The notes under the pieces were generated by a model that searched no databases, had not been told where the DNA came from, and was given only the letters and a program-made list of their open reading frames with translations. This document shows positions 1 to 43,688 of a DNA stretch of 64,000 nt, in pieces; the stretch's first letter is position 1, and the number at the start of each line of letters is the position of its first letter. Position numbers and translations under genes: made by a program. Source of the stretch: Hydrolagus colliei (lineage: Eukaryota); assembly GCA_035084275.1 (NCBI GenBank), contig CM068743.1, positions 92,690,001-92,754,000 on the forward strand. Reading direction: 5' to 3'.

Positions 1-13
1 GACAGTTTTATGG

Positions 14-1050
14 TCAGATGTCAGCAATGAGCATGAACTGGCTTCCCAGCTTCATGTCGTCAAATGGAAGCAACGACAGAATGTCCACATTGCCGGCTGC
101 CAGGTCCTGGTGGGGGGATGGAGTGTTTCCTCCTTCATGTTGGGCAGGAAGGTGTCAGCTCCTGCCTGAAAATGCCGGTGACCTGCCTACCCACTTCCAG
201 GTGCAGGGCAGTGCATCATGCCATCCACGTCCTTGTTGTGTTTCAGCAACAGAGACACCAGAGCTGCCTTGTACAGCTCCACTGTTAGGGCAGTGCTGTC
301 TCCCCACTCATACGATCCTGTCCATCAACTTCTGTTCCATTCTAGAGGAGATGTTCCATTATCTCCTGGTTTCTGCCCAGAATTGTAACATGTAGACATG
401 TCACATCTTGCCAGTTGTGTTGCTCCAGTTCCTGGTGCCAAGACAGAAGTTCTGGAGGTCATGTCTTTCCTGCACTGTGGGCTGCTGTGTCGGGGCCTGG
501 ACACACTGGACCAGCCCATATCACAGGCCAGATGGAGTGCGGTTGTTGCCGTGCAGATCTCCAGCACCTCCACAGAGAAGACGCTGATGAAGTGCACGGC
601 ACATGCTTTTCTGCCTTGTGAATTGCTGCCAGGTGCACAATGGTGCCCCTATCCTCCCCCAGGAAAGTGTAGGGATCCAGGGAAGAGTCTACAACTGTCT
701 TGACCCTGGATTCAGTGGCTCCTTTATTGTCCTCCTCCTGTCTGATCCAACAGGACTTGCCCAGGGTTACAGACAGCGAGTCTATGATGGGCGAGGTGCC
801 ATACCAGGAGCCGAGGCAGTCAGAGAGATATGAGGAGCAATAACTGAAGTTCAACTGATCCTCCTCCACTTCCTCTATCTCCACTTTGTTCAATGGCTCC
901 TGGGGCTCTCTGAGTGATTCAACCAAACCCGAATCACACCAAGATTTATCCACATCAAACCTTCCACCGGGATCTGCTTTACCGCGTGTTCCATTGTATT
1001 TCAGATTAATATCGTGTGAATTAGCCGCTTCCTCTTGATGGCGGAACAAT
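14..1050 (-). pseudogene. NFKBIE: Processed (intronless) pseudogene of NF-kB inhibitor epsilon (IkB-epsilon)
   Basis: Minus-strand translation across frameshifts gives WCDSGLVESLR (degron, 915-935), SWYGTS, TFLGEDRGTIVHLAAIH, EVLEI, HGN-TALHLAC, QHNWQDVTCLHVTILGRNQEIMEHLL*NG, QAGADTFLPN and LSLLPFDDMKLGSQFMLIADI* (stop 14-16). These are collinear with IkB-epsilon motifs (DSGIESLR, EDGDTLVHLAVIH, QNWQGLACLHIA, LLPFDDLK). Premature TAG at 342-344, several frameshifts, no introns. Confidence 0.88.
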
Positions 1051-1337
1051 GTTGCAAAGCTGACTTTGTTTACTCCTCCACCACCTCCCACACCCCACTC
1101 ACCCCTACACATCAGTGAATGAGCTGCTTGTGAATTTTAGGTAAATTTCAATGCAGGTCAAGATCTTCTTGTTGCAACGGATGATTCCCAACTCTCTCCT
1201 TTTGGTTATCCAAGTTCCAATATTTTTCTCCCTTTTTGCAAAACCCTGAGTCTCTGTGTGTTGTGTTTGTGTTGTGTGTGTGAGTTGCTCTCTCTGCGGC
1301 CCTACGTTGCTGCAATTGCACAGGACTCTGCCTGACT

Positions 1338-1348
1338 GGGGATTTCCC
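1338..1348. promoter_or_regulatory. NF-kB (kB) binding motif GGGGATTTCCC
   Basis: Exact match to GGGRNNYYCC about 290 bp 5' of the NFKBIE-derived CDS; function unproven. Confidence 0.5.
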
Positions 1349-1589
1349 TCAGGTTTCCTTTCGAACAAAATATAGTAAAAGCCCATTTATCCAGTACCCT
1401 TGGGACCTGGCCAATGCTGGTTAAAGCATATGCCAGATATTCAGCCCCAAACACCAAAAAAAAATAATAAAAAAAAGTAATACATTGTGCCAGATAAATT
1501 CTGGTTAATTCAATGCGGACCTTTTTTTGAGGTGCTGATGATATGGAAGTTACGGTTGATTGGGTCACGGATAAATGGGCTTTTATTGT

Positions 1590-1840
1590 AGTGCCATTCA
1601 TGTCAGGAGGTTGTCTCAATGCACTTCAGAGGATTCATTGCGAGTTGCAGTGACTGCGTATTCTTTAGATGAAACACGGTAGCTAATTTGTGTGCAGCAA
1701 AATCCCGCAAACAGCCATGAAGTGATTGATTAGTTTATTGACTAGGACCCTGGAAGAAAGTCCCCTTGTCTTTTTCAATGGTGCATGCTTGAATGTCCAC
1801 TTCAACAGGCAGACAGGACGTGGGTTTAACGTCTCATTAC
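1590..1840 (-). mobile_element. Old DeuSINE (SacSINE-like) fragment
   Basis: Reverse complement contains ATGAGACGTTAAACC...TGGCTGTTTGCGGGATTTTGCTGCACACAAATTAGC, resembling the Deu domain. Confidence 0.65.
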
Positions 1841-4511: not shown

Positions 4512-5353
4512 GATATGGCCATGCAGCTCCAGGAACTGATCCGGGCAAAGCCTTTTGCATGTTTTATGCTGTCCTGGGAATACCACTGACTCTAGTTATG
4601 TTCCAGAGCCTCGGAGAACGAATGAACACGTTTGTTAAATATCTTTTAAAACGAATAAAGAAGTGCTTTGGCATGAAAAGCACTGATGTGTCCATGGAGA
4701 ATATGGTGACCGTTGGTTTCTTCTCGTGCATGGGAACCCTGTGCATTGGAGCTGCAGCCTTCGCTCACTATGAAGACTGGAGCTTTTTTCACGCGTATTA
4801 CTACTGTTTCATCACATTGACTACAATAGGGTTTGGGGACTATGTGGCACTCCAGAAAAACAGAGCCCTCCAGAGAAGGCCACTTTATGTGGCTTTTAGC
4901 TTTATGTACATTTTAGTGGGTTTAACAGTAATTGGAGCTTTCCTGAACCTGGTGGTTCTAAGGTTTTTGACGATGAATAGTGAAGATGAAAGACGGGATG
5001 CTGAGGAGCGAGCATCTTTGGCAGGAAACAGAAACAGCATGATTATCCACATCCAGGAAGATCCCCAACAGGGCAGACAGCGGTACAAAACTGAAGTGAC
5101 GGATCTCCAGTCTGTCTGCTCCTGCATGTGCTACAGATCGCACGAGTACACCAACAGGGTGGTATCTCACCAGAATTCATTCAGTTCCCATCTGAATCCC
5201 CAGTACTTTCATTCTGTATCTTACAAGATTGAGGAGATTTCACCAAGCACATTAAAAAACAGTCTGTTTCCATCTCCTGTGAGCTCTGTGTCGCCAGGTT
5301 TGCACAGCTTTAATGACAACCACAGGCTCATGAGAAGGAGAAAGTCGATTTGA
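4512..5353 (+). CDS. KCNK9: Potassium channel subfamily K member 9 (TASK-3), last coding exon; first exon lies outside the window
   Basis: Polypyrimidine tract and acceptor ttttttttaccttgcag| at 4511, phase-1 junction giving (G)[38 protein letters not shown]; second pore TLTTIGFGD; TASK-3-specific tail [19 protein letters not shown]...[10 protein letters not shown]. Open frame with no disruptions. Confidence 0.96.
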
Positions 5354-42009: not shown

Positions 42010-43688
42010 TCAAGAAGACAATGCTAGCAAACAATTTAGGGAGACTAATATTAGTAAAGAGATGGTTCTAGGTAAATTGTCGAGTCTTAAAACCGATAAA
42101 TCCCCTGGACCAGATGGCCTACATCCTGGAGTTTTAAAGGAGGTGGCTACTGAGATAGTGGATGGCATGTCTATAATCTTCCAAAATTCTGTGGATACTG
42201 GAAAAGTTCCCATTGATTGAAAGATTGCAAACGTAACTCCACTATTCAAGAAGAGTGGGAGAGAAAATATGGGAAACTATAGACCAGTTAGTCTGACGTC
42301 AGTTAAAGGGAAAATTCTTGAATCCTTAATAAAAGATTAAGTTATGGGATACCCTAAAGACCATAAAAAGATTAGGCAGAGTCAACATGGCTTTACAAAA
42401 GGGAAGTCATGCTTGACTAATCTTTTAGAAATTTTTTGAGGATGTATCCAGCAGGTTGGATAAGGGGGAACCAGTAGATGTGGTATATTTGGATTTTAGG
42501 AAGGCTTTTGACAAGGTGCCACACAAAAGGCTGTTACTCAAGATTAAGGCCCATGGGATTAATGGGAAAATATTAACATGGATAGAAGAGTGGCTAACGG
42601 GTAGAAAGCAGAGAGTAGCGATAAACGGATCATTCTCGAATTGGCAGGATGTAATTAGTGGAGTGCCACAAGGATCAGTGCTTGGGCCTCAGCTATTTAC
42701 TATTTACATCAATGATCTAGATGAGAACATTGAATGTAACGTGTCTAAATTCGCGGATGACACTAAACTAGGTAGCAGAGTGAGCTCTGAGGATGATGCA
42801 AAAAGATTGCAACAAGATATAGATAGGTTAGGGGAGTGGGCAAGTAGGTGGAAGATGGAATTCAATGTTAGCAAGTGTGAAATTATTCACCTAGGTAGCA
42901 AGAATGAAAGAATAGATTATTTTCTAGAGGGGGAGAAGTTAGATAGTGTTAGTATTCAAAGGGATTTGGGTGTCCTTGTACACCAGTCCCAAAAGGTTAG
43001 TTTGCAGGTGCAGCAAGCAACTAAGAAGGCGAATGGCATGCTAGCGTTCATTTCAAAAGGTTTAGAGTACAAGAGTAGGGAAGTCTTGCTGCATCTGTAT
43101 AGGGCCTTGGTGAGACCGCACCTAGAGTATTGTGTGCAGTTTTGGTCTCCTTATTTAAAAAAGGACATACTTGCCTTAGAGGGGGTGCAGCGTAGATTCA
43201 CTAGGTTAGTTCCTGGGATGAGGGGACTGACCTATGAGGATAGGTTGAATAAACTAGGGCTGTATTCTCTCGAGTACAGAAGAATTAGGGGGGAATCTTA
43301 TTGAAACATATAAGATTCTTAAAGGGCTAGATAAAGTAAGGCACTGAGGGACTGTTTCCCCTGGTAGGAGAATCTATAACCAGGGGTCACAGTCTTAAAA
43401 TTAAGGGTCAGCCTTTTAGAACAGAGTTGAGGAAACATTTCTTTACTCAGAGGGTAGTGAATTTATGGAATTCACTACCCCAGAAGGGTGTAGATGCTCA
43501 GTCCTTGAACATTTTCAAGGCTGAGACTGATAGATTTTTGAAAAATAGAGGGATTAGGGGATATGGGGATAGGGCAGGTAATCAAAGTTAGGTGAGAAGA
43601 TCAGCCATGATCTTGTTGAATGGCGGAGCAGGCTCGAAGGGCCAAATGGCCTACTCCTGCTCCTAATTCTTATGTTCTTATGTTCTTA
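42010..43688 (+). mobile_element. 5'-truncated young CR1 LINE (ORF2 RT domain plus 3'UTR)
   Basis: KSPGPDG, NYRPVSLTS, VDVVYLDFRKAFDKVPH, GVPQGSVLGP, KFADDTKL, LVRPHLEYCVQFWSP; 3' terminus ...CCTACTCCTGCTCCTAATTCTTATGTTCTTATGTTCTT; a few stops and frameshifts outside the 42456-43304 ORF. Confidence 0.95.

What the first reader, a model, noticed from the sequence alone, without database searches (positions are those of the whole stretch)
14..1050. Hidden NFKBIE (IkB-epsilon) retrocopy antisense within the presumed KCNK9 intron
Seen: no single ORF shows it, but joining minus-strand frames rebuilds nearly the whole IkB-epsilon protein from the degron through the ankyrin repeats to the LLPFDD tail, with no introns, a premature stop and frameshifts. 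Known: vertebrate NFKBIE is multi-exon. Inference: LINE-mediated retroposition. The poly(A) tail and 3' TSD would lie left of base 1.
Basis: partly seen in the sequence, partly recalled or inferred. Interest (0 to 1): 0.7.

Follow-up and report, generated by a model that had tools for sequence, protein, structure and literature searches.

The report
Dead NFKBIE retrocopy inside KCNK9 intron
A broken, intron-free copy of the immune-brake gene NFKBIE lies backwards inside an intron of the potassium-channel gene KCNK9; pieces of an intron-bearing parent appear in public sequence data and the parent likely hides in a gap of this assembly, so this is likely an ordinary dead retrocopy and not a lost gene.

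Summary
Confirmed. The minus strand at 14-994 aligns to elephant-shark IkB-epsilon (residues 7-368 of 369; 239 of 313 aligned codons identical) with 7 frameshifts, a stop, a 35-codon deletion and an out-of-frame start codon. It lies antisense in the 34-kb KCNK9 intron. The lesions are real: two samples of this organism match, and a second species shares most of them, with a neutral 14:3 nonsynonymous:synonymous split. No parent is in the assembly, but a 200-N gap sits at the expected site between the SLC35B2-like and TMEM151 genes, and contigs from three runs carry an intron-bearing NFKBIE with splice sites at four junctions that the window copy has joined. So: processed pseudogene, not a decayed unitary gene. 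The predicted poly(A) tail and target-site duplication were not found; instead a LINE 3' tail starts about 10 nt after the stop, leaving the mobilising element open. Retrocopies are common in cartilaginous fishes. Ordinary kind, well supported, modest interest.

The parts
14..994 (-). Disabled, intronless NFKBIE coding sequence (ATG 994-992, TGA 16-14): degron, ankyrin repeats, LLPFDD tail; 7 internal frameshifts, 1 stop, 35-codon deletion at ~556, start codon out of frame
995..1366 (-). 5' UTR-derived part. Homology to the intron-bearing parent is shown to ~1087; extent to ~1366 is inferred (single-copy sequence up to the first repeat)
   Evidence: X8 records 12, 14 and loose end at 1058; 1 of 1 match, itself
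1339..1348 (-). kB-like site GGGAAATCCC near the presumed 5' end; consensus recalled; 12 such sites in 104 kb, both strands; function untested
642..646 (-). Joined exon 1/2 junction; the parent has a GT donor here (EDGDT|GTAAGT)
   Evidence: X8 loose end at 655
404..408 (-). Joined exon 3/4 junction; the parent has a pyrimidine tract and CAG acceptor here
   Evidence: X6 loose end at 405
315..320 (-). Joined exon 4/5 junction; the parent has a GT donor after DAQ
   Evidence: X8 loose end at 323
80..85 (-). Joined exon 5/6 junction; the parent has a GTAAGT donor after VD (contig from a second sample of the window's organism, depth 2.6)
   Evidence: X5 loose end at 83
1..5 (-). Start of a ~75-nt LINE 3' tail (continues left of the window to about G000:C2:92689928), same strand as the copy, ~10 nt after the stop; followed by ~330 nt of single-copy, 50% GC sequence
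1371..1590 (.). Small inverted-repeat element (MITE-like, TA-flanked) at the 5' edge, itself inside a SINE/LINE-type tail; obscures the insertion boundary
4512..5353 (+). KCNK9 exon 2 (host gene); the intron that holds the copy runs ~34.2 kb from G000:C2:92660331 to window 4511

Best explanation
The stretch is an intron-free, disabled copy of NFKBIE lying antisense in the KCNK9 intron, likely made when a LINE reverse transcriptase copied a spliced NFKBIE mRNA in the germ line of a chimaera ancestor, and likely inert since. Shown: spliced structure at four junctions where the parent has introns; a different chromosome-scale contig (C2) from the conserved parent neighbourhood (C3); fixed lesions shared by two species; neutral change between them. 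Inferred: the intact parent of this organism lies in the assembly gap on C3; the copy was dead on or soon after arrival; the LINE tail after the stop is more likely a separate insertion into the copied 3' UTR than the priming end; poly(A) and TSD have eroded or been overwritten by repeats.
For: Identity. Spliced versus parent: 4 of the 5 IkB intron positions (all five visible in the NFKBIA paralogue on C17) have a splice site in parent contigs from X8 (two donors), X6 (one acceptor) and X5 (one donor); the fifth falls inside the deletion. Parent pieces differ from the copy at 46 of 419 aligned letters and at 4 of 4 amino-acid-changing codons tested carry the C. milii residue (7 of that record's 16 differences were tested). 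Parent site: HSP90, UAA-transporter, 200 N, TMEM151, LRR gene in that order on C3:105.24-105.28 Mb; 200 bases cannot hold a six-exon gene, and the transporter gene resumes at an internal exon 25 nt from the gap, so real sequence is missing. Parent introns and gap flank are GA/TC-rich, the kind of sequence long-read HiFi data under-cover (PMC9186530, passages). Lesions real: X1 0 differences and X5 2 differences over 1039 nt, no gaps; X6 (organism B) 24 substitutions and 16 gap letters, none at six of the seven frameshifts, the start lesion or the large deletion. Neutral: 14 nonsynonymous to 3 synonymous among 17 scored changes, expectation 72%, p=0.43.
Against: No poly(A), no AATAAA within 1.8 kb of the stop, and no TSD (3 exact 9-mers, shuffled mean 1.5, none at plausible ends). 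The parent is seen in the window's own organism only as one 430-nt contig at depth 2.6 against 47.8 (X5) and not at all in X1 (1 record laid); a 22-nt parent intron pattern has 0 matches in the assembly. The parent's reading frame was seen only in pieces, never whole. The gene order used to place the parent and the names SLC35B2, TCTE1, HSP90AB1 are recalled from human, not from a call. Retrocopies of HSP90 and RPSA are scarce here (1 old fragment among 27 HSP90 matches, 0 evident among 3 RPSA-family matches), so a near-full-length copy of an inducible gene is not what bulk retroposition would favour.
Confidence: 0.9

Rival explanations
1. Same retrocopy, different making: the copy ends at the LINE tail. 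A tail-recognising (L2-type) reverse transcriptase began on its own 3' tail, either by switching template from LINE RNA to NFKBIE mRNA just after the stop or by using a tail already in the parent's 3' UTR. This is a variant within the best explanation, not an alternative to retroposition.
For: The tail starts ~10 nt after the stop on the same strand; chance from local density is 0.2% within 15 nt, 1.2% within 100 nt, 5% within 400 nt (69 other copies in 277,876 bp; a test made after seeing it). Its age fits: 7 of 68 from the local majority (median 12% over 36 copies) versus 11% between copy and parent. It is present in organism B (X6 records 18 and 23). No poly(A). No L1 ORF1 family match in the genome (a weak blank: nothing rang in controls either). 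Stringent 3'-end recognition by non-L1 LINEs is reviewed in PMC3747384 (passages).
Against: About 330 nt of single-copy, 50-51% GC sequence follows the tail against 29-45% in the 100-nt bins from -500 to -1400, as a copied 3' UTR would look; one X7 contig from another locus aligns there (97 letters, 10 differences, 7 gaps), identity unverified. 51 of 69 local tails also stand without a LINE body by a crude motif test, so solitary tails are common. The one other retro-fragment examined (HSP90, C6) has no such tail at its end. The L2 label rests on recalled motifs; Pfam gave no family for the LINE fragment tested.
Confidence: 0.25
2. Decayed unitary gene: NFKBIE moved here as a working retrogene, or simply lost introns, the parent was lost, and the gene later died, leaving this organism without IkB-epsilon.
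For: No intact NFKBIE among 81 of 81 candidates scored in the assembly, none in 60 kb at the expected site, no parent contig in X1, pattern search blank.
Against: Intron-bearing NFKBIE pieces occur in X6 at depth 37-43 (organism B), in X8, and in X5 (same organism as the window); the expected site is an assembly gap that also removes the 5' part of the neighbouring transporter gene; lesions predate the split from organism B, which still has the parent.
Confidence: 0.05
3. Transcribed regulatory pseudogene: the kB-like site drives an inducible non-coding RNA, or the KCNK9 pre-mRNA supplies antisense RNA that pairs with NFKBIE mRNA.
For: GGGAAATCCC at 1348-1339; antisense position in a gene intron; ~89% identity to the parent in aligned pieces.
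Against: Neutral substitution pattern and 2.3% substitutions plus indels between two species; such sites occur 12 times in 104 kb; an upstream in-frame ATG at 1112 (217 codons, degron included) is frame-shifted by a 7-nt insertion in organism B.
Confidence: 0.04
4. Assembly artefact: the frameshifts are consensus errors in an intact intronless gene.
For: None beyond the general possibility.
Against: A single 1,439-nt contig matches with 0 differences in X1 and 2 in the independent sample X5; most lesions recur in organism B.
Confidence: 0.01

Closest known systems
Vertebrate processed pseudogenes (retrocopies), as catalogued for 244 genomes in bioRxiv 10.64898/2026.06.26.734816
   Same: Intronless copy with joined terminal exon junctions, far from the parent, disabled reading frame; the paper counts 14,081 retrocopies in cartilaginous fishes (section 5).
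   Different: No poly(A) or TSD is left; the parent is missing from this assembly, so a pipeline that starts from annotated parent mRNAs (methods passage) would likely miss or misread it. The paper's supplements were closed and may or may not list this copy.
NFKBIE / IkB-epsilon of Callorhinchus milii (P0001, XP_007896402.1)
   Same: Degron, ankyrin array and C-terminal tail; 76% identity over aligned codons; sister in the tree.
   Different: The copy is intronless, broken in at least nine places, and on another chromosome-scale contig than the parent neighbourhood.
SINE/LINE pairs that share a 3' tail (stringent LINEs; PMC3747384)
   Same: A LINE-type tail ending in a short repeat follows the copy on the same strand.
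   Different: Here it is one copy of an mRNA, and it is not shown that the tail took part in making it.
Retrogene replacement (amphioxus SYCP1, PMC5803294; seen only as search listing and start of abstract)
   Same: Intronless copy at a new site with no parent in the assembly.
   Different: The copy is dead and the intron-bearing parent is present in raw data.

Membership tests
Processed pseudogene | Lacks introns that the parent gene has | tested here: met
   4 of 5 junctions joined in the window and carrying splice sites in parent contigs; the fifth is deleted in the copy
Processed pseudogene | An intron-bearing parent exists elsewhere | tested here: met
   Pieces in runs X5, X6, X8; not in the assembly; whole intact frame not seen
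Processed pseudogene | Lies away from the parent locus | tested here: met
   Copy on C2 in KCNK9; recalled parent neighbours on C3 around a gap; placement of the parent in the gap is inferred
Processed pseudogene | Disabled reading frame, neutral evolution | tested here: met
   (14:3 among 17 scored changes)
Processed pseudogene | 3' poly(A) remnant (hallmark of young L1-made copies; erodes) | tested here: not met
   No poly(A) run or nearby AATAAA in 3 kb scanned. Not required for old copies or non-L1 machinery; it lowers the claim 'L1-made', not 'processed'
Processed pseudogene | Target-site duplication | tested here: inconclusive
   None above chance; both ends are overlaid by repeats, so the ends are not defined
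NFKBIE (IkB-epsilon) orthogroup | Groups with NFKBIE rather than other IkB paralogues | tested here: met
   Sister to C. milii NFKBIE 100/98, inside a 100/100 clade of shark, bony-fish and tetrapod NFKBIE; 24 of 120 listed proteins used; no NFKBIA or named NFKBIB row in the tree; NFKBIA is a separate gene on C17
NFKBIE (IkB-epsilon) orthogroup | DSGxxS degron plus intact ankyrin array in one frame | tested here: not met
   Degron present, array broken and partly deleted: derived from NFKBIE, not a functional member
Unitary pseudogene | No functional counterpart in the genome | tested here: not met
   Intron-bearing counterpart in raw-data contigs of three runs
LINE-tailed chimeric retrocopy | mRNA-derived part is fused directly to a LINE 3' end that forms the end of the insertion | tested here: inconclusive
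   Tail adjacent and of matching age, but likely 3' UTR continues beyond it; parent 3' UTR not available
Transcribed or regulatory pseudogene | Copy-specific RNA | not testable with these tools
   No RNA run was offered

The most novel reading that the evidence does not exclude
The copy was made by a tail-recognising L2-type LINE that captured an immune-inducible mRNA through a LINE 3' tail placed right behind its stop codon, which would be a worked example of how mRNAs get retroposed in a vertebrate genome where poly(A)-recognising L1 is not evident.
Probability: 0.25. Interest if true: 0.55.

Novelty: new member of a known kind. Interest (0 to 1): 0.3.

Why it matters
Mostly as a caution and a marker. 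From this assembly alone one would conclude that this chimaera has lost IkB-epsilon, an NF-kB brake, because the only NFKBIE-like sequence is a pseudogene; the raw data show the parent and point to the gap that hides it. The insertion is shared by at least two species and evolves neutrally, so it can serve as a presence/absence and neutral-rate marker among chimaeras. If the LINE tail proved to be the priming end it would bear on which elements make retrocopies outside mammals. I found no paper on this copy: 0 papers hold both 'nfkbie' and 'retrocop', 1 unrelated paper holds 'nfkbie' and 'Callorhinchus', and none of the listings (15 of 565 shown), 43 and 49 concerns it.

Tried and rejected
Own-genome DNA searches with the coding part, the 5' part and the part beyond the tail each returned only the locus itself; a protein search with the N-terminal frame likewise. 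The C17 hits were considered as parent and rejected: they are the intron-containing NFKBIA. Poly(A) and TSD scans were blank. No RNA holder listed: no evidence on expression either way. The first read-laying was swamped by repeat tails, so its loose-end table did not show the parent; the second, on the coding part only, did. Two X6 loose ends (at 361 and 557) and the 4-nt insertions at window 312 and 1161 did not look like introns; they fall at GATC or GANTC sites and are read as proximity-ligation junctions (inference), and were not counted as evidence. Extra depth in X6 beyond the tail was considered as parent 3' UTR and dropped: overlapping contigs of the same locus can explain it. L1 ORF1 family search was blank but uninformative. 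HSP90 and RPSA family searches, meant to show how other retrocopies end here, gave one old HSP90 fragment on C6 with neither poly(A) nor tail at its end. Three look-ups of earlier findings returned nothing. No structure prediction was run: nothing here depends on a fold.

Full report
Observation. Six-frame translation shows IkB-like pieces in all three minus-strand frames of window 14-994. The open N-terminal frame finds one protein, C. milii NFKBIE (P0001), at 74% identity over 70% of the query, among 154 candidates. A frameshift-aware alignment covers residues 7-368 of 369 with 239 of 313 matched codons identical and a score of 1005 against 29-40 for five shuffles. It needs seven frameshifts (about 607, 521, 438, 289, 216, 169, 125), passes one stop (342-344) and a deletion of 35 residues between 148 and 186. 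The homologous ATG at 994 is out of frame and closes after 34 codons. In a tree of 25 rows (24 chosen from the 120 proteins listed, plus the copy read through with X) the copy is sister to C. milii NFKBIE (100/98) with a branch of 0.30 against 0, inside the clade of shark, bony-fish and tetrapod NFKBIE. The organism is a holocephalan other than C. milii by inference: its intact NFKBIA exon 1 is 73% identical to the C. milii protein.

Host. A two-exon K2P channel gene on the plus strand spans the copy: exon 1 about 30 kb left of the window, exon 2 at 4512-5353, canonical splice sites, intron ~34.2 kb. PDB matches rank KCNK9 above KCNK3. The copy is antisense, 3.1-4.5 kb before the acceptor.

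Are the lesions real? Eleven public runs hold part of the stretch, none on record as RNA; five were laid. X1 (possibly the source) gives one contig with 0 differences and X5, a second sample of the same organism, one with 2 differences and no gaps. X6 (organism B) spans it with 24 substitutions and 16 gap letters: 11 at 210, 4 at 312, 1 at 362. So six of seven frameshifts, the start lesion and the large deletion are shared, and no change is listed at the stop (21 of 24 substitutions are listed); the 11-nt loss near 216 is specific to the window's organism. Of the 21 listed substitutions 17 fall in aligned codons: 14 nonsynonymous, 3 synonymous, against 72% expected under neutrality (p=0.43).

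Is there a parent? Not in the assembly: with P0001, 81 of 81 candidates were scored and only this locus matches well; the next hits are NFKBIA on C17, which shows introns at the five IkB positions. In human (recalled) NFKBIE sits between SLC35B2 and TMEM151B. Family searches put a UAA transporter gene and TMEM151 within 12 kb on C3, flanked by HSP90 and an LRR gene. Sixty kb there hold no NFKBIE match but a run of exactly 200 N between the two genes; the transporter gene resumes at an internal exon 25 nt from the gap and TMEM151 exon 1 starts ~870 nt on the other side (exon numbering recalled, not aligned). Laying contigs on the coding part alone exposed the parent: X8 shows EDGDT followed by a GTAAGT donor and DAQ followed by a GT donor, X6 a pyrimidine tract and CAG acceptor before exon 4, X5 a GTAAGT donor after VD (strings reversed). 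X8 holds both the copy's orthologue and the parent. Parent pieces differ from the copy at 46 of 419 aligned letters (biased low, only alignable parts count), lack the copy's lesions where visible, and carry the C. milii residue at 4 of 4 changed codons tested. Against this: in the window's own organism the parent is one contig at depth 2.6, X1 shows none, and a parent intron pattern is absent from the assembly. The parent's introns and the gap flank are GA/TC-rich, and HiFi under-coverage of GA-rich sequence is reported in PMC9186530 (two passages seen); that this caused the gap is inference, and the tool also warns that some contigs are filtered.

Ends. Left of base 1 there is no poly(A) run, the first AATAAA lies 1.87 kb away, and no direct repeat links the ends beyond chance. 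About 10 nt after the stop begins a ~75-nt tail of an abundant LINE, same strand, present in organism B. Beyond it lie ~330 single-copy bases at 50% GC, then more repeat tails. At the 5' side homology to the parent reaches ~1087, single-copy sequence reaches ~1366 and includes a kB-like site, then a TA-flanked inverted-repeat element inside another repeat tail. The true ends are therefore not defined.

Mechanism. Best reading: a LINE reverse transcriptase copied a spliced NFKBIE mRNA, 5' UTR included, into the KCNK9 intron before the split of organisms A and B (copy-to-parent distance 11% against 2.3% between the two species' copies), and the copy decayed neutrally. Shown: splicing pattern, lesions, neutrality, parent pieces. 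Inferred: reverse transcription, the parent's place in the gap, inertness. Which LINE is open. The adjacent tail is unlikely by local density (0.2% within 15 nt, 5% within 400 nt) and of matching age (7 of 68 from the local majority), L1 ORF1 was not detected (weak), and retrocopies of HSP90 and RPSA are scarce. But solitary tails are common, likely UTR continues past this one, and the one other retro-fragment examined has no tail. I give the tail-primed reading 0.25.

Comparison and verdict. Processed pseudogenes are well known, and bioRxiv 10.64898/2026.06.26.734816 (abstract, section 5 and passages seen; supplements closed) counts 14,081 in cartilaginous fishes and credits CR1 or Tx1 LINEs outside mammals. 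PMC3747384 (passages) reviews stringent versus relaxed 3'-end recognition. No paper on this copy was found (one search listed general reviews only, none read). It meets the structural tests for a processed pseudogene, lacks poly(A), and fails the test for a unitary pseudogene. New member of a known kind; interest 0.3.

Noticed in passing
G000:C3:105255685-105255884 (L047): A 200-N gap between the UAA-transporter gene and TMEM151 removes the 5' part of the transporter gene and likely the whole NFKBIE gene; annotation of this assembly would report both as broken or lost.
   Followed up: yes
G000:C6:66753100-66754550 (L081, L085): Old 5'-truncated processed fragment of the C17 HSP90 gene (79-83% identity, last intron missing), split by a ~1.2-kb inverted-repeat element; no poly(A) or LINE tail at its end.
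   Followed up: partly
G000:C17:12905592-12908300 (L051): Intact-looking NFKBIA with introns at the five IkB positions.
   Followed up: partly
proteins P0024, P0025, P0031, P0033, P0048, P0049, P0053, P0066, P0105: Sharks and rays have a second IkB clade, variously named epsilon, epsilon-like or alpha-like, far from true NFKBIE (branch 1.03, 100/100). It may be mislabelled NFKBIB; no counterpart stood out in this assembly's hits.
   Followed up: no
window 462-1112 (-): An upstream in-frame ATG opens 217 codons that include the degron before running out of frame; a 7-nt insertion at ~1086 in organism B breaks it.
   Followed up: partly
window 1371-1590: TA-flanked inverted-repeat element (MITE-like) with copies on C3 and C17, inserted in a SINE/LINE-type tail.
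   Followed up: partly
window 42429-43301 (+): 291-codon reverse-transcriptase fragment (RVT_1, E 5e-24), CR1-like by recalled motifs, among many L2-like fragments.
   Followed up: no
run X6: Contigs of this run carry apparent proximity-ligation junctions at GATC/GANTC sites, which mimic insertions and loose ends.
   Followed up: partly
G000:C2:92659460-92660047 (L004/L005 boundary region): The KCNK9 frame stays open ~196 codons upstream of the usual MKRQN start, with an in-frame ATG 89 codons before it; not examined.
   Followed up: no
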